DNA of 63,409 nucleotides, filler included, from Pirum gemmata (taxonomy: Eukaryota): NCBI GenBank assembly GCA_002812295.1. It is 17 parts of 17 records of this genome, joined end to end, with 100 filler letters (N's around TTAATTAATTAA, not from the genome) between each part and the next. Parts side by side here need not be neighbours in the genome. Positions count along the whole stretch, not along the records: positions 22,539 to 26,197 come from PDIN01002157.1; positions 26,298 to 29,935 come from PDIN01002158.1; 15 more parts are not named here. One strand, 5' to 3'. Every line of letters starts with the position of its first letter. Position 1 is the stretch's first letter. The translations under genes and the position numbers were made by a program. Positions 311-48,807 of this stretch are shown piece by piece. The notes below the pieces were generated by a model. That model searched no databases and had not been told where the DNA came from. It saw only the letters and a list, made by a program, of their open reading frames with translations.

Positions 311-1003
311 TTAAGAATGTATGGCTTTGTCATAATGTAAATTTTTTCTACTAGCATTAAGTACCCCATGTTTACGATAATAAAATCCACATGTATTACA
401 CAGTGTACCACTACCCTCTGGTCCAGGTCTCCAAGTACAGGAACTTGTTTCATAGCAATGTCGGCAAGGGCGATTGGTACGGATGATTGATTTTCTTTTC
501 CTTACACGTTTAGATCCATTCACAAATTCATGTTTCGAATGCTTTATAATGAAATCGCTATTATCTTCACTAAAACTATATCTATTATTATCAATAGTAC
601 TGCTATTATTATTGTCAGCATTATCATTACTATCATATGCTATAAAACTATTATCATAGGCTATACTATTTCTTTTGGTACTGACGTCGACACTATCATT
701 TTCTGTGTGTTTGTAATTGTTATATTGGAAGGAACAGGTATTGTTAAGAGGGCTATGAGGGGGGTAATTGTTACAATGGCCATTTGTTTCTCCGTCGCTA
801 TTACTTGTTAAACTCATACTATCACTATCAGTATTTTTATTGTAATATTGATCAGTATATATAGTAGCATTCTGTTCAGTATTCTTATGATCTTTTTTAT
901 AAGAGCAAAAATTACTATGTATATGATGGTGTGTTTTTGTAGAATTATCGCAATTAACTCCCCAAGGGCGCCATATTGCATTATTATTTGTTGATGAAGT
1001 CAT
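311..1003 (-). CDS. GATA zinc-finger transcription factor (single C-terminal CX2CX18CX2C finger), intronless
   Basis: 230-aa ORF ending RPCRHCYETSSCTWRPGPEGSGTLCNTCGFYYRKHG, preceded by basic KRVRKRK; Asn/Ser-rich disordered N-terminus. Confidence 0.9.
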   Translation of the reverse strand: MTSSTNNNAIWRPWGVNCDNSTKTHHHIHSNFCSYKKDHKNTEQNATIYTDQYYNKNTDSDSMSLTSNSDGETNGHCNNYPPHSPLNNTCSFQYNNYKHTENDSVDVSTKRNSIAYDNSFIAYDSNDNADNNNSSTIDNNRYSFSEDNSDFIIKHSKHEFVNGSKRVRKRKSIIRTNRPCRHCYETSSCTWRPGPEGSGTLCNTCGFYYRKHGVLNASRKNLHYDKAIHS

Positions 1004-1237
1004 GATTCAATAATTATATAATGTCTATTATCTATTGTTTATTGTTTTATAATAAAAAAAATAAAAAATTCGTTACTTTTTTTTTTTTCATATTTTAGTT
1101 TTTTGTTATTTTTCTGGGGTTTTTTCCTCTTTTATATTATTTTTAATTTTTTTTATTTTTTTTTTAGGTATTTACAAATTATTATTGTGTCTATTAAAAT
1201 TTAAACAACCTCATTTCTAACAGTTTTTTTCAAAAAA

Positions 1238-23954: not shown

Positions 23955-25463
23955 TTAAGCTATAGTCAGATATAAATCACCAACACACCAAATATAAATT
24001 AAGTAAACATTAACAATAATCATAAATGTTAAAATAACACACAAATTACCAATCCAGTCATTAAAAAACGGGGGCACACTTAAATTTCGTTTTTCAATAA
24101 CCCCCACAATAAAGTTTCTTCTTAAATGATAAATAATCGAGGCATACATGACAATCACATCAGAACATACAACCACTGCAGTTACTAAAGGTTTTACTTC
24201 TGATCGTAATTGTTCAGTGTCTTTTATATGTAAAAAGGCTAAGGCAAAAAAGGCCAACGTAATACCAAACTGAACATACCTCATGTACGTTCTTTCTGCG
24301 GCCATCATTACTTTCATATCAAATTTAAAACATTCTTCGCGAGCGTTGGTGAAAATGTTATACCCATGTTTCTGGGTAGCAGTGCGAGAGTTGGACCGGT
24401 TACTAAATGCATAACAACCTAACCCTCTCCCAATTTTTCTTTCTCTTAATGAATCAGATGAACTTTCCGGAGAGGTTCTAATCAAAGGTGCCAGTCCGTT
24501 GTTGTTGTTGTCGATAGTTAAGGCAGTGTTGAATTGGTCTTGAATTTGTTTCTTATTAGGGTTATTTACATCACCAATATTATTGTCCATAACTACAACA
24601 GTATTAGAGAAATCAGTATTACCTGCATGTCTTTGTTCGTCGACATCCTTATTGATATTTTCTTTTAACCATTCTTCAAGTGCTTCATAATAGTTAGGCT
24701 CTGGTTTTTTAACTTCTGGGTACAAAAGCATGCAGCCAGTGTTGTACTTGCTTACTTTTAACTTTGTACCTTGGTGCTGCTCTATGAGCTCTACTAACCA
24801 TTCAGGATTCTTCTTTTCCTCCCCTTCTTTAACCAGAACTTTAATTTCGATAACTGCGTATGGAAATACATGGTATTCTTTCGCCGTTTCCGGAATATTA
24901 GGATTACTAACACTAATATGTTCGTCTAGAGTAACGCGAAGTCCATCGAATTGAACATCCTCCGCGTTTAAAAAAGAAGTACGAAAGTAATCAGTTTGTA
25001 CTTTCGGTTTTAAGTTTAATTCATCAATCTTGCTTTGAAATTTGATTAAATTTTTGTATTGTTTGTCGTCAGGTTGAGAGCCATACAAGGCCCTTTTTTT
25101 GGTACTCTCTTTACCAGTGATGTCAGTATCCCGATGCCGTTTTCTTTCTAAAAAGCATGGGTTCCCCGTTTTATCATTATAATCACCATAGACACGAGTC
25201 CTATATAAATCGGCCTTGTCCGCTTTGTATACCCTTTGTTCGTACATGGTTAAGCCATCAGTATCAAAATAAACACTACTGTTTTTAACGGTATCAACGC
25301 CATCTACAAATTGCCCTTGGCCAGTTCTGAAAGGCGATATAGGTAAGATTTTTTGGAGTTCTTCAACAAAACTGGGTACATTGCATTGTTGCATGATAAA
25401 TTTTGTTGTTTTACGTACAATAGTACTGTTGCCTTTATCGGCTAATATTGGTTTTTGAGACAT
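23955..25463 (-). CDS. VTC4: VTC4-like polyphosphate polymerase (VTC catalytic domain + DUF202-type 3-TM domain), no SPX domain, intronless
   Basis: Motifs VRKTTKF, SVYFD, YRTRVYG, FLERKRHR, STKKR, TDYFRTSF, RVTLDE, FPYAVIEIK, KVSKYNTGC, and MAAERTYMRY followed by three TM helices. Confidence 0.88.
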   Translation of the reverse strand: MSQKPILADKGNSTIVRKTTKFIMQQCNVPSFVEELQKILPISPFRTGQGQFVDGVDTVKNSSVYFDTDGLTMYEQRVYKADKADLYRTRVYGDYNDKTGNPCFLERKRHRDTDITGKESTKKRALYGSQPDDKQYKNLIKFQSKIDELNLKPKVQTDYFRTSFLNAEDVQFDGLRVTLDEHISVSNPNIPETAKEYHVFPYAVIEIKVLVKEGEEKKNPEWLVELIEQHQGTKLKVSKYNTGCMLLYPEVKKPEPNYYEALEEWLKENINKDVDEQRHAGNTDFSNTVVVMDNNIGDVNNPNKKQIQDQFNTALTIDNNNNGLAPLIRTSPESSSDSLRERKIGRGLGCYAFSNRSNSRTATQKHGYNIFTNAREECFKFDMKVMMAAERTYMRYVQFGITLAFFALAFLHIKDTEQLRSEVKPLVTAVVVCSDVIVMYASIIYHLRRNFIVGVIEKRNLSVPPFFNDWIGNLCVILTFMIIVNVYLIYIWCVGDLYLTIA

Positions 25464-26032
25464 TATTGACTATTAAATAATGTTAGTATTGTTTATGGTG
25501 TGTTTTTATTATTATTATTGTTGTTATTATTGTTGTTAGCTATTGGTACTGTTATTATTATATAATTACTGTTATTTCTTGTTTTGTTTTTAATTTTCAG
25601 CATCAAGCCATGATAAAAACTAAAAACGAACTACAAACAAACAAACAAAAAAAACTACAAAAAAACAAAAACAAAAACAAAAACAAAAAACAAAAAATTA
25701 AAAATAAAATAAAAAAGCGAAACGAGATTTTTTAATTTTTTAATTTTTTTAATTTTTAATTTTTTGTTGTCTGATAAAGCTTCTATTTTATACAATATTA
25801 TCCTAAACTTCAAAAATTTATAAAAAAAAACATTTTAATTTTAATTATTATTATTATTATCTTATATTATTATTATTATATAATTATTATTATTTGCCAA
25901 AGTCTAACCCTTACCCCCACCAATCCCCACCCCTATTAACCCATTAACCCATTAGCCCCACTTCAAGCTTAACACCCAAATCCTAACAGTCCCGAATATC
26001 AGTCTCCATTAAAAACAAATATTATAGTTATA

Positions 26033-26068
<36 letters not shown>

Positions 26069-26861
26069 GATTAATTATATTAAATCAATAATTAATTTAA
26101 AGTTCATGGACAAAACTAATTTTTTATAAAGCAAACAAATTTAAAAAAGCCATAACCACAACAACAAAATCACAAACAATGACCAAAAAAGTACTAGNNN
26201 NNNNNNNNNNNNNNNNNNNNNNNNNNNNNNNNNNNNNNNNNTTAATTAATTAANNNNNNNNNNNNNNNNNNNNNNNNNNNNNNNNNNNNNNNNNNNNGGG
26301 TTATAATCTTTAAATTGATAATTTTAAATCAATATACAGATAAAAAAATATACCAAATTAGTTTAAATGAATTTAAATTATAATAAATTGGTACTATTTA
26401 TTGTATTGACTTTATAATGACAAAATAAATGAAAAGCACAATAATAGTGTTGATAAGAGTAGTCTAGTGTGAGAAAGTCACTGAAAAGTGAAAAGAAAAA
26501 TTTAATAAAAAAAAAATGAAAAGAACTATTTCTGGCTCGAAAAATTCAAACAAGGTGTTTAATTAGATTCAGCCTTAATTTAATTCGACTCGAACCTCAA
26601 AAAAAATTAAAACTTTTTTTTTTGTGGTACTGGGCGCCCGGTTGATTTTTAACGTTGGTTGTTGTTTGTTATATGAACTTGTTGGTGTTTGTTATATTAT
26701 TATTAATAATAAGTCATTTTTTTATTTTTTATAATTAATTTACTATATTATTCTTGCATTATCATCTTCAATATCCAAACTATCCTCTATAAGAAAACTT
26801 AATAATTGTTTGTTGTTTGTTGTTTATTATAATAACTAATACTAATTCTTTTATTCGTAAT

Positions 26862-29696
26862 TTACAATATACTTGCAATATCATCTTCGATATCAACACT
26901 ATTTTGAAAAGCAGAATCCAAATCACAAATACTCTCTGTATCCGTGGAAAGACTTATATCACAATCAAATGTATTCAAACTCATTTGGCTATCTCTTTTA
27001 TGCAAGTCCCCAGCTTTCTTAGAATTAGTAGTCCACATTTTAAAGAAGGACACTGGTTCCTCGTCATCATCTTGAGCTTTTTTCTTAAAAACAGTTGCAG
27101 CTTTGTCATCATTTAAATTAGAAATATATATTTTACTTAATGCGAATCTTAACAAGTTATAACTCAACAAACCTGTCAGTAGCGATACAATAACTAAAAT
27201 ATAAGAAAATCCAATCGCGCATTCTCCAGGATTAAAGTAAGATGTGTCCGGTCCACACATCGGCGAGCCGTTTTCATTGGTGGTTTTTAACATTTCTTTC
27301 ATTGCTGCTGTGCCGTTTGCTCTTATTGCATCGCGATTTATTTCGGAAGGAATTAGTGCTTCCCACCACCCTATTTGATAGGCTGTCAAGCTTTCGAAAC
27401 TAAAAGGAAACAGTAACACTCCAGCCAATAAGGCAGTACAACCAATCCAGGAATAAATAACTGTAACACTGTACGTACGACTCTTACTTGGAGATATGAA
27501 TGAATAAAACAAAGAAACTAAGTTTAAAATAAACATAAACGAAGCAGAGAGAGTTAATATTACTGCAAACGACCAAGTTTTGTTAGGCGTGTCCCATAGA
27601 ACATTGCTACCCCATAACACAACTTCGCTTGTAAACTTAGGACCGTGGTACTGGTATTCTAAAAACAATAAACCGTAATTAACTTTTACTTCACCTTCAT
27701 GTCTTTTTTCAAATAAAGCCGCAGTGTAGTTTGTAATAGAGTGGTTATATAATAATGGTAGTTGACCAGGGATGGCTTGGGTCTTGTAGTTGTTTTTGGC
27801 TGGAATTCTAAGCACTTTGTTTTTGCTATTACAGACACCGTTTCCTAAACAAACGCCAATGGTTATGTTTAGTGTATAACTAGCAAATGGAGTAATCTTT
27901 TCCTGTTTAACTTCACTTCCTACCACGCTTTTTGTTTCTAAGGTTAAGGTTTGAATTGTTTCGTTATAGTAGTACTCTGATGCTGTGTAACCTTGTTGTA
28001 CAAAAGAGTTTCCAAATGTATTTGCAATGTCGACAGAATTGAGAGGGAGGTTGTAAATGGAAATACTTGTGAAACTTGTTTTTGTGGTTAGCCTGTATAT
28101 TTGTTCTGGCGTGGTGGTGGCGTTGTAGGGGGTGATGATTATTGGTTTCGGGCTTTCGTTATTGCCATCTGTTTTGGGAAAAATACAATAATATTAATTA
28201 ATATTAGTAATGATTTATATATATATAATAATATTATTAACATTAAAACATTTAACATTATCATTAAATATTATAATAATAAGTGTAGTAATAAATAAAT
28301 AGAATAAAATAAATAAAATAAATACCTTGCCAAATTGTCTCTGTCACATTTAGAACTGTTTCAGTATAACGAGGAACATGTACTTCTAAAGTAGTGGTTA
28401 ACCAGTGTGTAGTAAAAACGCCACCTAATAATAATCCAAGCGTAATACAATACAATACTGTACTTAGAACTTTAAGATGCGATTTTTTAAAGTTTTCAAA
28501 AAACGAAGACATTGTATGATCTGCACAAAACAAATAATAAAAAAACGACAAAATTTGCTGCATAATGGAAATGGAGATGATAGCTGTAGAAACATAAACC
28601 AAAGTAGTAACATTATCAATAAACAAAACAAAAGAAGCAATAATCCCACAATTCAACAACACAATAAAAGCAAGAAATACAAAACTCTTAATCTTCAAGG
28701 AAGTTTTGAGATTTTTTTTTGCTTTGATTTCGGACACATCAGCATCACTGGGACGATTACCCCATGACAAATCCCAGGTTCTCGATAGAGAGTAAGCCAT
28801 AAACCAAGGTACGAAAGTTGGCAGAAATAAAAAAAATGGAAGAAAGTTGAACATCATCATAAAAAATACATCCAAACTATGCAATAAAGCTAATGCAAAT
28901 GGAAAAAACATACTCATACACATTACTGCTATAACAAGTGTACTTTGGTTTATGAAAGTTGTTAGAGTCATTGCCAACACAAAGAAAAACATAACTGTAT
29001 TCCATCCCAAAATAATGTTATACATAGAATGTATAAATTTATAAAAATAATGACCAAAACAAAATGTAATATACAAAACACCATATATTCCTAACACTCC
29101 ATACGCTAACCATTGCGAAAGGGCACCCGCAAAATTGACTTGCAGAACCGAATAATAACATAACGTTATAAACACGGCTGGTGCAGCTGCACTAATTATA
29201 TACAACAAACACTGAATAAGAATTTGCGAGTAAATCACAATTTTAAAAAATATATTATGTTTTGGTGCCCGAAAAATCAGACCAGGTACCATAAACAGTA
29301 GATATATGTAACACGCAAAAGTCCCATTAGTCCAGCGTCGCCTTTGTGCTAAAAATTTCTCCGATTCTGTTTCCGCTTCAAAATAAAATATGGCCGACGG
29401 CACCCAACGCGTGTATTTTCCCGTTTTCAGAGCAGCAGCATAGGACAAAATACGATCTTCGGCCAAAAGTAAATTACCTTGCATTATACCATTCTCTGCT
29501 GTTGTGTTGTTGATAAAATCCATGTAATAATCAAGACATGGGCCGCTGATATCACTCATTCTATACATACCACAAGGACCCGGGATTACCGGTAACATAC
29601 CACACAAACTGAAAGCTCCTTGAAAAGCTGAAATGGAAGATTCGTAGTCAAAAGCTTGCGCGGAACGGTACCACATTGCAAGTAACCCTTCACTTT
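26862..29696 (-). CDS. CHS: Chitin synthase (GT2, division-1-like), 5'-truncated by the contig end, fused to a C-terminal LHFPL/claudin-like tetraspan domain. Exons 29696-28326 and 28168-26862; possible extra terminal exon 26786-26743
   Basis: PVIPGPCGMYR, LAEDRILS, EAET, QRRRWTNG, WDLSWGNRP; a 157-bp phase-1 GT..CAG intron (28325-28169) joins in frame to the 354-aa ORF carrying LLFPF..MCG..YFNPGECAIGFSY. Confidence 0.9.
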
Positions 29697-30149
29697 CTGT
29701 GTTATGATTATTATTGTATTGAATTTTAAATTTGTACAAAGGATTAATATGTGTTATCATGATTAGAATAGATTAATATTGTATTATTAAAAGTTGTAAA
29801 TAATTAATTATAATATTAAATTTTCATTTATAAACATAGTAATACATAATATACAATCAACAGATTTAATACCTAGCCCTAACTTCCAACCCCTAACCTA
29901 ACCCCTAACCACTAACCACTAACCCCTAACCCCTANNNNNNNNNNNNNNNNNNNNNNNNNNNNNNNNNNNNNNNNNNNNTTAATTAATTAANNNNNNNNN
30001 NNNNNNNNNNNNNNNNNNNNNNNNNNNNNNNNNNNCTACTACTACTACTACTACTACCACTACTAATAATAATAATAATAATAATAATAATAAGTATTAT
30101 TAGTACTATTAGTACTACTAATTTCTGAAAATGATAAGGACGACATTAC

Positions 30150-31035: not shown

Positions 31036-31353
31036 AATGACCAAATAAGAACATAATACTACATACCAAATTATATTTTTTTAATACCAATATGTTTAAT
31101 TTGGTAGCATTTATTAATATTATTTGAAAATTTAAAAATACCTATTAAAAATTATTCCAAAAAAGATATAAATAGACTTTCAATAAAATCGACAGATCAA
31201 TCACTACTCCCCCTACTCTCCTAACCCTAACCCTAACGCTAAAACCCTCAACAACCCTAACTCTAAGCCTAACCCTAACCCTACGAGTATCAGATAGTAG
31301 ACCTGGCCATCATTATCATCATCATCATCATCATCATTATCATCATTATCATT

Positions 31354-31385
<32 letters not shown>

Positions 31386-32387
31386 TAATCGTTTATCATA
31401 ATCATTTAAATCATAATCATTAGGAAATTTATCATCATTTATCATCATCGTCGTCATCATTATCGTTATCCTCATTGTCATCATCATTAACATTATAATT
31501 AACATCATCATTATCGCCATTATTTTTCAATTTAAATATTATAAACCTCCAAATAAATAATCAGAGTATAGGAGTTTTTACTGTTTTTTCTGCAGGTTTT
31601 TTTTTTTGTTTTTTTTTGTGTTTTGTTTTTTAATTTTTGGTATTTTAGTATTACTATTACTATTACTTATTATTATTAGTAGTTGATTATTATTATTAAA
31701 TTCTATTACTATTAATATTACTATTACTATTACTATTACAAATTAATTAATATTACTAAATAATTAATGTTATTATTAATATTAATATTATATAATTACT
31801 AGTACTAGTATTATTATATTACTATTATTATTACTATTATTAATTGTATATATATGATGATATTAAATATGATAATAATAATGACAATGATGATGATAAT
31901 TACGATGATCATGATGATGAATGATGATGATGATGGTGATCATGATGACAATAACGGCGATAATGATGATGTTAATGATGATGACGATGAGGATAATGAT
32001 AATGGTGACGACGATGATGATAAATAATGATAAATGATTAATGATAAATGATTAACGATGATAATGATGATAATGATGATAATGATGATAATGATGATAA
32101 TGATGATGAATGATAATGATGATGATGATGAATGATAATGATGATGATGATGATGGCCATGTCTACTATCTGATACTGTTAGGCTTAGTGTTACAGTTGT
32201 TGAGGGTTTTAGGGTAGTGATTGATCTGTCGATTTTAAAAGTCTATTTATATCTTTTTCGGAATAATTTTAAAAAAAAATAGGTATTTTTAAATTTTCAA
32301 ATAATATTAATAAATGCTACCAAATTAAACATATTGGTATTATAAAATATAATTTGGTATGTAGAATTATGTTCTTATTTGGTCATT
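31036..32387. repeat. Long imperfect inverted repeat (foldback); arms about 31036-31523 and 31951-32387
   Basis: AATGACCAAATAAGAACATAAT...GTATCAGATAGTAGACCTGGCC(ATC)n is mirrored by (GAT)nGGCCATGTCTACTATCTGATAC...ATTATGTTCTTATTTGGTCATT. Confidence 0.9.
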
Positions 32388-33613
32388 CCATTTTTTTTCT
32401 TTTTACTAATTTGTTATTTTAGTTTTCTTAAATTGGTATTAAATTCCTGAAGATACTTCTAAATATGGTTTTTTTTCTTTTCTTGATGTCAGTAACCAAA
32501 CTAAGTCTTGCCCAGTGTTGTTGCCTATGTGCTTTTCAGTTTTGTCATCATAAAATATACAATAAAAAGTACCAAATTAATACAATATAGATCCATTTAA
32601 TTTAATTTGGTGTGATTAATTATCTATTTATTAATTTAAAAATGTCAATTTAAATATTATAACCAACCAAATAAACAATATAAATGTAAACTAGACTAGA
32701 CTCTAGTAGCTGACTAGCTGGTAGATAGTATCGATAGACTATCATGCTTTTCAGTAATATTTTGTAGTCATAAAATATACAATAAATAGTACCAAATTAA
32801 TACAATATCAATCCATTTAAATTAATTAGGTATATTTTATTATCTATTTATTAATTTAAAAATGCCAATTTAAAGATTTATAACCTACCAAATAAATATT
32901 CCGAGCAGATTTCGAGAGTGATTTTTCCACGTGGGAAAATTGGGAATAAATATCGTCTAAACTATTTCATTACAGTTGTCCACTCATTCTTTAATTCGGT
33001 ACTGTTTAAGTGTATAATTGAACTTTTTTATAAATACAACATTTTAAGTATAAAATACCAAATTAATTAAAACATGCCCGATAGTTTAACTATTATAATA
33101 ATTTGGCATGTTTTAAATTTATTTCAGTTTTTGATGAGATCATTTAGGACTCATGGTAGTCTAGTCTATCGTGCAATTCATTTATTTTATCACTCTGAAT
33201 ATTTATTTGGAGGGTTAAAATCTTAAAATTGACATTTTTAAATCAATATATAGATAATAAAATATGCCAAATTAAATTAAAAGGATGTATATTGTGTTAA
33301 TTTGGTACTATTTATTGTATATTTTATGATGACAAAACAAATGAAAAACACTTGTCTATATCGATAAGAAAACATTCATATTATAAAGGACGTGATAAAA
33401 GGCATTGCTCGAAAGCGTGACTTAAAGTCTTATTAAACTGTTTTGGGCAGTAATAAACTTTAAAATTATGACCAAAAGTGTTTTGGACAAAGCAGCATAG
33501 GTAAGATTAGGTGACGCCCTTTTTATGGATGATTCCTATACATTTTTGCAACGAATAATTAATTTTCTTACCCCCTACTAGCTAGTAGCTAGAACTATCA
33601 CCCCAAAGGCAAG

Positions 33614-39260: not shown

Positions 39261-40936
39261 TCATTCGATTGCTGTGGTGTCCATAATTTGGCTCACGTAC
39301 TGGTTGTGTTTATGTTTTGGAAGTGGTTTCGTGAACATATCTGCGGGGTTATTTTCACCTTCTATCTTGAATATTTGAGCATGGTTTGCTGTGAATTGTT
39401 CTCGTGTATAGTGATATGCAATGTCTATGTGGCGTATATTTTTGATTGGAGCTCGGCCTTGTATTATTTGTTTAGCCCCGTGATTATCGATGTGCGCATG
39501 TATTTGAAGCTGTTGATGTTGATTCGGAAGTAATGATTGTATGTTGTTGATGTATTGGGTGGCGCGAAACCCTGCCATAGCTGCAATGAATTCTGCTTCG
39601 TTTTGTTGTATTGCTACATTGTTTGTTTGTTTTGCTTTCCAATCTACTACTGCGTTATTGTATAGTGTGTAGTATCCTATTGTAGTCTTAGCGCCCGGTA
39701 GGTCGGCCATTGAAGAATCGGTATATAAAATTAATTTGTCGTTGTTATGTGTTTTTCGTTTGGGGTAACTGATGCCGTAGTGACTGGTGTTGTATAGATA
39801 TTGTAGTGTGCGTATAGCAGCGTCGACGTGTTGTTGTGTTGGGTTGGTGCAGTGCGTGGCCAATTTGTGGGCTGTGTATGCTACGTCTGGTCGTGTACTA
39901 TCCGCTAGGTATCGTATGATTCCGATGTACATTAGAAATAGTTTGAGTAATCGTTTGGAAATGTGGTGGTTGTTGTGCGCTGATTGTTTGATGAGTTTTA
40001 CAAATGTGGTTGCCATTGGGGTGCTTATTTTTGTGTTGATTGGTATTCGAAGTTGTTTTATAACGTTTTGTATGTATTGTTGCTGGTGTATTTTCGTATG
40101 GGTCTCACTTTGCTTTATTTCCATGCCGATTATGACCTGTGCTTCTCCTAAGTGTTTCAGTGGGTACTGTTTGTTGATGGCGTCTATCAGTGTAGTGTCT
40201 GGTCCACATTTGTAAATGTCGTCTACATACAATCCTACTGCCGTTTTGCCATCGGGTGATATCGCTATGCATGATTCTACTGGGTGTATGTTATAGTTGT
40301 GTTGTCGTATTACATTACTCATGCTTTGATTAAATAGCATGGAAGCGTCACGCTTGCCGTACATAGCTACTCCGACCTGTATTGCGCATTGAAATTGATC
40401 GTTCGGGTCGTAATGTCGTGCTAGTAATCGTTGCTGTTCTGGTGATAGCTGTTCTTTGATTAAGTACATGCCTTGAGGGATATTGATGTATGTTGGGGTT
40501 GGTGTTGGTGTATGTAAGAATGCGTTGGAGACATCGTAATGCTGAATTGGTTGATTTATCTTGGCCGAATGTGCTATGAGTGTGCGTGTTGCTTCACGGG
40601 GTAGTACCGGGGAGTAAGTATCTTCTGCTGGTGGTCCTTGGTCGCCTCGACAATTCAGTCTTGCTTTATACCGCCCATCTTGTTTGATTTTTATTGCCCA
40701 TATTGTGTTGTACGTGTGTTCGTCGTCGGGAACGGATTTCCTATCCACTATTCGGAATTTTTCGTTTAACTTGATGTACGCGCTGAATTCGCTAACTATT
40801 GCTTCGATATATTGTTCCTTGTCAGGTTGATTGATTGCTTCTGTAAATGTAAGATGTGCGTGATAGTTGGTTTGTTCTAGTAATTCTATCATCTGTGTTG
40901 CTGGTGTGGTGTGTTGTATTTGTTCTTTGTGTGATG
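39261..40936 (-). mobile_element. Ty1/Copia LTR retrotransposon pol (RT + RNase H), 5'-truncated by the contig end
   Basis: YKARLNCRG, DTYSPV, YDVSNAFLH, LYVDD, TRPDVAY, YTDS, EAEFIA, IDN, RHIDIAYHYTRE, NPADMFTKPL; at least 543 aa uninterrupted. Confidence 0.96.
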
Positions 40937-42156
40937 NNNNNNNNNNNNNNNNNNNNNNNNNNNNNNNNNNNNNNNNNNNNTTAATTAATTAANNNNNNNN
41001 NNNNNNNNNNNNNNNNNNNNNNNNNNNNNNNNNNNNATAATTAGGGTTAGGGTCAGGGTTAGGGTTAGGGTTAGGGTTATGGTTAGGGTTAGGGTTAGGG
41101 TTAGGGTTAACGTTATATGGTTGGGGTTAGGGTTATGGTTAGGGTTAGGGTTAGGGTTAGGGTTAGGGTTAGGGTTAGGGTTAGGGTTAGGGTTAGGGTT
41201 AATTGGGGTTAGGGTTGGTTAGGGTTAGGGTTAAGGTTAGGGTTAGGAGCTGGTTAGGGTTAGGGTTAGGGTTAGTTAGGGTTATGGTTAGGGTTATTCA
41301 GGGTTATAATTAGGGTTAGGGTTAGGGTTAGGGCATGAGTGATATTAAACTGAAATGCATAATAATATTATTATAAATAAAAAAGAAAATGATACTATGT
41401 AGTATGTATAATAATACATTACGTCAAGGGGTAGGTAGGTAGTCGGTATTTGACCGGAAATTAACGTCAAGGGGTAGGTAGGTAGGGGGTATTTGAAGCT
41501 GTACAGGAAATTGGCGTTACGCAGTATTTGGAACTATTTGAATACTCCGTCTATTTCATTAGAGCTGCTCTCTCAATCTTTAATTTGGTACTGTTTAAGT
41601 GTATAATTGAACTTTTTTATAAAATACAATATTTATTATAAAATACCAAATTAATTAAAACATTCCCGATAGTTTAACCATAATAATAATTTGGTATGTT
41701 TACGTTTATTTTCAGTAATAATTAAAATGTATTATTAATATTATTTACAACTTGAACAAAAATTTGACATGAAAATTTGCGAATTTTCAAAATAATCAAA
41801 TCGCTTTTTTCGATTTATTATCGTCGTATCATAACCTTTCTATAATTAAAAGTTACCAAAATAAACATAACTTACAGCAAATTATAACTATTTGTCACCC
41901 TGAATATTTATTTGGTTGGTTATAATATTTAAATTGATATTTTTAAATTGATAATTAAATTGTAAAACATACCAAATTAAATAAAATGGATTATATTGTA
42001 TTAATTTGGTACTGTTTATTGTATATTTTATGATGATAAAACAGCTAAAAAGTACTAACTACTTAATAGTACCAAATAACTGATAATTTGTATCAAATTA
42101 TGGAGTAATGTCGACGTCTCATTGTTGAATAAGTTCCTAAAAGTTTTTTTTTTTTC

Positions 42157-48757: not shown

Positions 48758-48807
48758 TAAATATTAAGTTAAAATAATTGATACTCTGAAATTAAATACC
48801 CTGAAGA

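What the first reader, a model, noticed from the sequence alone, without database searches (positions are those of the whole stretch)
26743..29696. Chitin synthase fused in frame to an LHFPL/claudin-like tetraspan domain with a ~225-aa glycosylated loop
Seen: the two ORFs listed separately (28264-29760 and 26862-27926) join through a 157-bp intron (..TGG CAA G|GTATTT..CAAAACAG|AT GGC..). The 81 codons upstream of the second ORF are open, giving about 890 aa on this contig. After the CHS catalytic motifs (LAEDR, QRRRW, SWGNRP) and TM helices comes TM-THW, then a loop with about eight N-x-S/T sequons and a Cys pair, then YGLL, TPNKTW-TM, TM-LLFPF, MCG-x4-YFNPGECAIGFSY-TM and an acidic tail. Known: GL..P..W..P..CG..(Y/F)..G.C.IG.(S/A)Y is the LHFPL (lipoma HMGIC fusion partner-like) signature. 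Animal LHFPL proteins are auxiliary subunits of membrane complexes (LHFPL5 with PCDH15/TMC, LHFPL3/4 with GABA-A receptors). The CHS fusions I know are N-terminal myosin, cytochrome b5 or MIT domains and C-terminal SAM domains; I know of no CHS-LHFPL fusion. Inference: a chitin synthase carrying its own auxiliary, anchoring or sensing subunit, whose extracellular domain could organise emerging chitin or tether the enzyme to the wall.
Basis: partly seen in the sequence, partly recalled or inferred. Interest (0 to 1): 0.88.

Follow-up and report, generated by a model that had tools for sequence, protein, structure and literature searches.

The report
Chitin synthase with built-in claudin-fold subunit
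In a single-celled relative of animals, a chitin synthase gene continues across an in-frame intron into a four-helix membrane domain resembling the LHFPL helper subunits of animal ion channels; the fusion recurs in related species and likely gives the enzyme its own permanently attached assembly and anchoring subunit.

Summary
A 157-bp GT-AG intron (28325-28169, minus strand) joins the two ORFs in frame, giving about 890 residues. The public gene model of the ichthyosporean Pirum gemmata, 100% identical to exon A, makes the same join. The first half is a division-1-like chitin synthase whose N-terminal exons lie off this 3.6-kb contig. The second half passes Pfam's LHFPL cut-off, and its predicted claudin fold matches LHFPL4 best (Z 18.9), but it lacks the claudin beta3-beta4 cysteines. 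The fusion is not peculiar to this gene: 15 of 111 long homologues carry it, including Pirum, Sphaeroforma and Ichthyophonus proteins. Fused enzymes form one clade (97/95), so a single origin is likely. The big loop is predicted as long beta-strands with a conserved YYxN-x-S/T site, but 6 of 16 fused proteins lack it, so the tetraspan is the conserved part. Best reading (0.5): a covalently attached auxiliary subunit that packs on the synthase; the docking prediction gives only weak support. No transcript was seen and no function was tested. I found no description in the searched literature, but public records already carry both Pfam labels and the key 2015 paper was unavailable. Verdict: new variant of a known kind, interest 0.6.

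The parts
29697..29935 (-). 3' part of an upstream intron (acceptor ..CACAG ending at 29697); the exon(s) with catalytic motifs 1-4 lie beyond the contig end at 29935
   Evidence: 29697-29860 is 85% AT; N-linker starts at 29936; paralogue matches begin at about 29706-29733; acceptor inferred from sequence
28326..29696 (-). Exon A: C-terminal half of the chitin synthase plus the first helix of the tetraspan
   Evidence: oomycete Chs1 hit E 8e-15
28750..29658 (-). Catalytic and channel motifs 5-9: QAFDY, VIPG, EDR, QRRRW, SWG, with the channel helices between them
   Evidence: motif list from PMC9556331
28522..28710 (-). Two predicted membrane helices after SWG, which would return the chain to the cytosol before the tetraspan
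   Evidence: hydropathy; helices 568-599 and 602-629 in the paralogue model; topology inferred
28411..28479 (-). Tetraspan helix 1, followed by THW
28169..28325 (-). 157-bp phase-1 GT-AG intron inside the extracellular insert
   Evidence: same join in the public model
27678..28401 (-). 189-residue insert (interrupted by the intron), predicted as long beta-strands extending the claudin beta1-beta2 hairpin; 7 sequons; conserved YYxN-x-S/T
26862..28168 (-). Exon B: rest of the insert, remainder of the LHFPL-like tetraspan, acidic tail, stop
   Evidence: Pfam PF10242 E 7.6e-9, 36.5 bits
27126..27677 (-). YGLL strand, helices 2-4 and second extracellular loop with C-G-x9-G-E-C and a roughly 28-residue helical insertion
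26865..27125 (-). Acidic, Ser/Thr-rich tail, probably cytosolic and disordered
   Evidence: the matching tail of paralogue P0006 has pLDDT under 50

Best explanation
This is one gene, a division-1-like chitin synthase fused in frame to an LHFPL-like claudin-fold tetraspan, and the tetraspan likely works as a covalently attached auxiliary subunit that packs on the enzyme's membrane helices and helps it assemble, reach and stay in patches of plasma membrane. Shown: the reading frame, the motifs, the Pfam and PDB sequence matches, and conservation of the fusion across ichthyophonid proteins in one clade. Predicted: the claudin fold and the long beta-strand insert. Inferred: two helices after SWG bring the chain back to the cytosol, so the tetraspan sits with claudin topology and its loops outside. 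Also inferred: the enzyme makes chitin from UDP-GlcNAc as Phytophthora Chs1 does; the tetraspan does for the synthase what LHFPL4/5 and TARPs do for channels; and in long-insert paralogues such as this one a glycosylated beta-stalk, perhaps 6-9 nm long, projects into the wall as an optional spacer or tether that sets the paralogue apart.
For: Frame and public model. Module in 15 of 111 long homologues by a local HMM built from such proteins; two more (P0004, P0010) keep helix 1 and THW and then diverge or end. The 18 fused rows form one side of a branch at 97/95 in a 32-row tree. Fold: Foldseek top hit LHFPL4/GARLH4, E 6.8e-6; VIA Z 18.9, rmsd 2.9, 183 aligned, then TARP gamma-3 at 17.1 and claudins at 15-16. 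A profile of 8 modules hits only LHFPL4 (E 1.5e-7) and LHFPL5 (9e-6) below E 0.1 in the PDB. Full-length paralogue P0006: pTM 0.80 with 112 of 944 residues disordered, above the roughly 0.65 I would expect if the module floated free (my estimate). As separate chains the two parts of P0006 scored 0.40 (runs 0.35-0.44) against best control 0.00, runs agreeing in at least 90% of contacts, partner pLDDT 75. The tool calls this weak support: the mark was reached by 51 of 78 solved and 2 of 108 mismatched pairs, but at 0.60 or under by only 5 of 78 solved and by all 4 mismatches that passed. YYxN-x-S/T is kept in 9 of 11 long inserts, which fits an outside location. LHFPL5 is described as an auxiliary subunit that localises PCDH15 and TMC1 (PMC6974483, abstract and passages).
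Against: No transcript, localisation or activity data. The docking pass lies in the range the tool calls more often wrong than right, and it was run on paralogue P0006, not on this protein. The linker is short (about 15 residues), which alone could raise pTM. The nearest unfused relatives (Creolimax P0022, P0029, choanoflagellate and giant-virus enzymes) have no such module, so the enzyme family does not need it. The claudin beta3-beta4 cysteines are lost in this protein. The language-model search does not single out LHFPL: Claudin_3 0.90, Clarin-2 0.89, LHFPL 0.89. Zebrafish Tmc localisation does not need Lhfpl5, so the trafficking analogy is not universal.
Confidence: 0.5

Rival explanations
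1. The tetraspan is mainly a membrane pedestal for an extracellular beta-stalk that binds or guides nascent chitin chains, or tethers the enzyme to the wall, and so shapes fibril assembly.
For: The insert is predicted as strands of 17-27 residues at pLDDT mostly 60-90. It is present in 10 of 16 fused proteins, keeps a Tyr-Tyr-sequon site in 9 of 11, and has 8-20% aromatic residues. Pirum and Sphaeroforma are reported to have thick walls (PMC11286789, passages).
Against: The insert shrinks to 20-27 residues in 6 of 16 fused proteins, including two Pirum paralogues with intact catalytic motifs. Identity among long inserts is only 12-34%.
Confidence: 0.2
2. The module is a sensor: tension on the wall-linked loop, or a ligand, is passed through the tetraspan to switch chitin synthesis on or off, as LHFPL5 couples tip-link force to a channel.
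For: Closest solved relatives are LHFPL4/5 and TARPs; LHFPL5 sits under the tip-link cadherin (PMC6092121, passages). A sister clade has an N-terminal SH2 domain instead (P0022, P0029), so regulatory add-ons occur in this family.
Against: Analogy only. The extracellular part is optional. No partner is known.
Confidence: 0.1
3. The tetraspan is an oligomerisation or junction module: it polymerises like a claudin and places synthases in arrays or at the new membranes of cellularising coenocytes, with catalytically dead paralogues as scaffolds.
For: Claudin fold. CHS oligomerisation differs between taxa and is proposed to matter for fibrils (PMC9556331, passages). P0117 and Sphaeroforma SARC_00622 (P0120) have lost EDR, QRRRW and SWG yet keep the module and a long insert.
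Against: The best matches are non-polymerising auxiliary subunits rather than claudins. The beta3-beta4 cysteines are missing in this protein. Self-association was not tested.
Confidence: 0.12
4. The fusion is a passenger: co-translation of two proteins that act independently, or are cut apart.
For: Unfused sister enzymes exist; the predicted contact is weak.
Against: The fusion is kept in every member of its clade with enough sequence to judge, across Pirum, Sphaeroforma and Ichthyophonus; the linker is short and conserved in length.
Confidence: 0.05
5. Two neighbouring genes were joined by a gene-prediction artefact.
For: The Pirum assembly is fragmented and its annotation is called lower quality (PMC5560861, passages). 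The model's first 22 residues look like intron read-through and its last residues differ from the window's frame.
Against: Helix 1 of the tetraspan is in exon A and helices 2-4 in exon B, so neither ORF holds a whole domain. Relatives from several sources carry both parts in one record, and P0115 aligns through the junction.
Confidence: 0.03

Closest known systems
Division-1 chitin synthases: Phytophthora sojae Chs1 (7WJM, 8K52), yeast Chs1 (7XS6, 8K3x), Candida Chs2 (7STN)
   Same: Motifs 5-9 in this gene and motifs 1-9 in paralogues; the P0006 model matches 7wjo at E 2e-23; PF01644 in paralogues.
   Different: QxF/YDY in place of QHFEY; no MIT or 1N domain seen in paralogues; two helices after SWG and then a fused tetraspan.
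LHFPL4/GARLH4 (9FAJ chain L) and LHFPL5/TMHS (6C14), Pfam PF10242
   Same: Four helices with an extracellular beta-sheet; P..W, FP and C-G-x-G-x-C motifs; best sequence and fold match.
   Different: Fused to an enzyme instead of a free subunit of a channel; about 15% structural identity; beta3-beta4 cysteines lost in this subclade; 189-residue insert in the first loop and about 28 extra residues in the second.
TARPs, calcium-channel gamma subunits, claudins, MP20
   Same: Same fold, Z 14.7-17.1.
   Different: No sequence match below E 0.1 in the PDB profile search; none is fused to a glycosyltransferase as far as I recall.
Known CHS fusions: myosin motor, cytochrome b5, DEK-C, aminotransferase, SAM, IQ, MIT
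   Same: Accessory domains joined to a CHS core, often read as trafficking or interaction aids (PMC5122149, PMC3942024; passages).
   Different: Those are soluble domains; this is a four-helix membrane domain with an extracellular part. The passages I saw list no tetraspan.
Unfused sister enzymes: Creolimax CFRG0329T1 (SH2-CHS), Salpingoeca PTSG_01414, giant-virus CHS (Homavirus, L001, L002)
   Same: Same CHS subfamily, 35-41% identity for the three named proteins; two helices after SWG where checked.
   Different: They end about 100-220 residues after SWG with no tetraspan.

Membership tests
Chitin synthase (GT2) | Motifs 5-9 (QxxEY, VLPG, EDR, QxxRW, SWG) | tested here: met
   QAFDY (D for E, family-wide), VIPG, EDR, QRRRW, SWG (list)
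Chitin synthase (GT2) | Motifs 1-4 (TxYNE, DG, K, DxG) in this gene | not testable with these tools
   Off the contig and no genome held; present in paralogues P0004-P0006. The 'Y' for motif 1 of P0003 is a false match in the loop.
Chitin synthase, division 1 | Chitin_synth_1 (PF01644) | tested here: inconclusive
   Not found by my scan of the truncated P0003 though listed as precomputed; above cut-off in P0004-P0006
Chitin synthase (GT2) | CHS fold | tested here: met
   Tested on paralogue P0006: top 18 rows shown are CHS structures, E about 1e-21 to 1e-23; exon A hits PsChs1 at E 8e-15
Chitin synthase (GT2) | Monophyly with known CHS divisions against HAS/NodC outgroups | not tested
Chitin synthase (GT2) | Makes chitin from UDP-GlcNAc | not testable with these tools
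   Needs an assay
LHFPL (PF10242) | Pfam gathering score 25.2 | tested here: met
   36.5 bits for exon B; 24.8, just under, for the whole model; 7 of 8 trimmed modules match at E up to 1
LHFPL / claudin superfamily | Four helices with an extracellular beta-sheet (claudin fold) | tested here: met
   Predicted model pLDDT 80; Z 18.9 to 9faj_L, rmsd 2.9, 183 aligned
LHFPL / claudin superfamily | beta3-beta4 disulfide (Cys68-Cys79 in LHFPL5) | tested here: not met
   0 Cys between YGLL and WG in this protein; 2 Cys in deeper-branching P0013, P0014, P0020, P0021. Hence filed as LHFPL-like, not as an LHFPL member.
LHFPL (PF10242) | C-G..G-x-C motif in the second extracellular loop | tested here: met
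   CGPDTSYFNPGEC aligns with LHFPL4
LHFPL (PF10242) | Descent from within the LHFPL family by phylogeny | tested here: inconclusive
   No standalone relatives were retrieved for a tree; the atlas ranks claudin-like, clarin and LHFPL clusters level
LHFPL / TARP-type auxiliary subunit | Binds a principal membrane protein and alters its assembly, location or gating | tested here: inconclusive
   Weak docking pass on a paralogue, 0.40 against 0.00

The most novel reading that the evidence does not exclude
Ichthyophonids evolved a wall-building machine of their own: a chitin synthase with a hard-wired LHFPL-type subunit whose beta-hairpin is drawn out into a glycosylated stalk that reaches into the wall, couples wall tension or fibril position to synthesis, and is assembled with catalytically dead paralogues. 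LHFPL proteins would then have served matrix-to-membrane coupling on an enzyme before animals used them on ion channels.
Probability: 0.2. Interest if true: 0.85.

Novelty: new variant of a known kind. Interest (0 to 1): 0.6.

Why it matters
The chitin synthase fusions listed in the surveys I read add soluble domains; this one adds a four-helix membrane subunit of the kind that animals use on ion channels. It gives a concrete, testable handle on two open questions: how ichthyosporeans build their thick walls independently of fungi, and what LHFPL-like tetraspans did before animal channels. Short-insert, long-insert and catalytically dead paralogues in the same genomes form a natural deletion series. 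Because Ichthyophonus carries the fusion, it also marks a lineage-specific feature of a fish parasite's wall synthesis.

Tried and rejected
RNA: no run was listed for 26400-29900, so no reads were laid; this says nothing on expression. No genome is held, so the 5' exons could not be sought. A viral origin or viral copy of the fusion was sought in viral contigs. P0007, P0018 and P0013 gave no confirmed locus, and the alignment gave 3 loci matched only up to query residue 612; I read 2 of the 3 and both are unfused. The metagenome scan gave 10 loci, none matched beyond residue 613; I read ORFs of 1 of them. So whether the single-ORF fused proteins (one on a 272-kb contig) are eukaryotic, viral or from RNA is unknown. 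Standalone relatives of the module: none at E 0.01 among 2030 candidates, a search that also missed its own member P0121 and is therefore insensitive; 1 short fragment among 162. All 17 hits of exon B among 1.84 billion representatives are fused proteins or pieces resembling them. The insert has no atlas hit and no convincing fold match in PDB or BFVD, but it was never folded and searched alone, so its fold is not shown to be new. The first tree was the quick version, with P0004 and P0010 labelled unfused; one search relabels them as fused because they keep helix 1, leaves out the long branches P0117 and P0027, and uses 14 unfused rows of the 40. Papers: 'chitin synthase'+'LHFPL' 0 hits; two of chitin synthase/lipoma HMGIC/L_HMGIC_fpl/PF10242 0 hits; some searches gave listings only and none is titled on this fusion; one search timed out. 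The 12 supplements of PMC5560861 hold none of the domain names. Torruella et al. 2015 (Curr Biol), which I recall analysing ichthyosporean chitin synthases, is not held. Earlier scan notes: nothing.
Full report
Setting. The window is a chain of short contigs joined by N44-TTAATTAATTAA-N44 linkers; the finding lies on the contig 26298-29935. Exon A is 100% identical to EukProt Pgem_evm1s5485 of the ichthyosporean Pirum gemmata. That genome is described as fragmented, AT-rich and annotated with Evidence Modeler from transcript and ab initio evidence (PMC5560861, passages). No whole genome is held.

The observation. On the minus strand a GT at 28325 and an AG ending at 28169 bound a 157-bp phase-1 intron; G|AT gives Asp and links the two frames. 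The intron is 89% AT, the exons 64-65%. The joined frame is about 891 codons. The public model makes the same join, and relative P0115 aligns through it without a gap, 39% identical over 461 columns. The first helix of the tetraspan is in exon A and the other three in exon B, so the two ORFs do not make sense apart. No RNA run was listed, so splicing is inferred, not seen. The gene is cut at its 5' end: paralogue matches start at about 29706-29733 and their N-termini match nowhere in the window.

The enzyme half. It has motifs 5-9 of the list given for Phytophthora Chs1 (PMC9556331, passages) and hits that structure at E 8e-15. It does not hit Chitin_synth_2. Full-length Pirum paralogues have all nine motifs and PF01644, which PMC5122149 (passages) calls very specific to division 1. 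The model of paralogue P0006 matches solved chitin synthases at E about 1e-23. I treat it as a division-1-like chitin synthase; activity is untested.

The second half. Exon B passes Pfam's LHFPL cut-off (36.5 against 25.2 bits); the whole model falls just short (24.8). An AlphaFold2 model of residues 425-826 (pLDDT 80, pTM 0.68) has four long helices. Foldseek's first six rows are LHFPL4/GARLH4 (E 6.8e-6). VIA-align ranks LHFPL4 first (Z 18.9, rmsd 2.9, 183 aligned), ahead of TARPs, MP20 and claudins. A profile of eight modules finds LHFPL4 and LHFPL5 and nothing else below E 0.1 in the PDB. Against strict membership: the beta3-beta4 cysteines built in LHFPL5 (PMC6092121, passages) are absent here, though kept in four deeper-branching fused proteins, and the atlas ranks claudin-like, clarin and LHFPL clusters level. 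I file it as LHFPL-like.

The loop. Between THW and YGLL lie 189 residues with 7 sequons (shuffle mean 3.5, P 0.036). The model draws them as strands of 17-27 residues continuous with the claudin beta1-beta2 hairpin. From strand length alone I infer a stalk of some 6-9 nm; I did not see coordinates. A YYxN-x-S/T site is kept in 9 of 11 long inserts although identity is only 12-34%. The Cys pair is not conserved. In 6 of 16 aligned fused proteins the insert is 20-27 residues, including two Pirum paralogues with full catalytic motifs. The stalk is therefore optional and the tetraspan is the constant part.

Distribution. Of 111 homologues of 799-2280 residues, 15 carry the module by a local HMM built from such proteins: three from Pirum, Sphaeroforma arctica SARC_00623 and SARC_00625, a protein labelled Ihof (Ichthyophonus hoferi by my reading of the prefix), and nine unnamed metagenome proteins. 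The exon B search added SARC_00622, SARC_14609 and two more Pirum models. In a 32-row tree of the catalytic region the 18 fused rows are one side of a branch at 97/95; two long branches were left out, and P0004 and P0010 were counted as fused because they keep helix 1. Their sister is a pair with an N-terminal SH2 domain and no tetraspan (Creolimax P0022 and P0029). With the midpoint root this points to one fusion in an ichthyophonid ancestor. Giant-virus relatives read here are unfused.

Mechanism. SWG is cytosolic in CHS (legend on motif h). Two helices follow it here, so the linker would be cytosolic and the tetraspan would have claudin topology, loops outside; this fits the sequons. The closest solved relatives are auxiliary subunits that sit against a principal membrane protein and help place it (PMC6974483, abstract and passages). 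The full-length P0006 model has pTM 0.80 with 12% of residues disordered, which suggests a fixed placement, although the linker is short. Folded as two chains, the parts scored 0.40 against 0.00 for the best of three controls, a weak pass by the tool's own calibration. I put 0.5 on a built-in auxiliary subunit for assembly and placement, with the stalk as a paralogue-specific spacer or tether; 0.2 on the stalk as the main point; 0.12 on oligomer or junction scaffolding; 0.1 on sensing; 0.05 on a passenger fusion; 0.03 on artefact.

Prior art. Searches for chitin synthase with LHFPL, lipoma HMGIC, L_HMGIC_fpl or PF10242 gave no paper. Passages of two CHS surveys list myosin, cytochrome b5, DEK-C, aminotransferase, SAM, IQ and MIT domains and never name Sphaeroforma or ichthyosporeans. 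An Ichthyosporea review mentions chitin synthase once; PMC4739763 and PMC5560861 not at all, and the latter's 12 supplements lack the domain names. PMC6299283 and PMC13345962 (passages) add nothing on this. I read passages, not whole texts, and supplements of the other papers were not searched. Torruella et al. 2015, recalled as the study of ichthyosporean CHS, was unavailable and may show the architecture. Public records already carry both Pfam labels. The fusion is thus in databases but, as far as these searches reach, not discussed.

Verdict. A real, lineage-wide and apparently undescribed domain architecture built from two known families, with a predicted beta-stalk that had no match in the searches run. 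New variant of a known kind; interest 0.6, and 0.85 if the wall-coupled machine reading (probability 0.2) proves true.

Noticed in passing
whole window: Short contigs of about 3.6 kb joined by N44-TTAATTAATTAA-N44 linkers about every 3.74 kb; neighbouring genes in the window are not true neighbours.
   Followed up: yes
window 26760-26900 (-): The public model ends at ..EDDIA while the window's frame runs on three residues to a stop; a near-duplicate of the last codons lies about 120 bp downstream at 26775.
   Followed up: partly
P0022 (Creolimax CFRG0329T1), P0029: Sister chitin synthases with an N-terminal SH2 domain (E 5e-11 and 2e-6): a possible phosphotyrosine-controlled CHS, another fusion I have not seen described.
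   Followed up: partly
P0120 (SARC_00622), P0117: Fused proteins that have lost the catalytic motifs but keep the tetraspan and long insert; probable pseudoenzymes, the first beside active paralogues.
   Followed up: partly
P0016, P0017, P0019: Proteins of 1320-1370 residues with two PF01644 stretches, apparently two CHS units in one chain.
   Followed up: no
L001 8196-14886; L002 8203-12076: Viral contigs with an unfused relative beside ORFs that look like a phosphohexose mutase, a glutamine:fructose-6-phosphate amidotransferase and a CAP-domain protein (L001) or a GH18 chitinase (L002); labels recalled from sequence features, not from a call.
   Followed up: no
P0114: A 1014-residue fused protein on a 272,826-base ENA contig; eukaryote or giant virus not determined.
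   Followed up: partly
P0092: A record labelled Zophobas morio matches exon A at 69% over 21% of its length; possibly ichthyosporean contamination of that assembly.
   Followed up: no
window 23955-25469 (-): VTC plus DUF202 protein, like a polyphosphate polymerase subunit.
   Followed up: partly
window 39261-40988 (-): ORF that looks like the reverse transcriptase/RNase H of a Ty1/copia element (label recalled).
   Followed up: no
window 311-1006 (-) and 48805-50034 (+): GATA zinc-finger protein and ankyrin-repeat protein.
   Followed up: partly
window 61979-62494 (+): 108-bp tandem repeat, 4.8 copies, encoding a 36-residue unit with two cysteines; possibly a surface protein.
   Followed up: no
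window 31077-32347 and 32539-33338: Nested inverted repeats (70 nt at 99%, 137 nt at 88%) around simple repeats, MITE-like.
   Followed up: no
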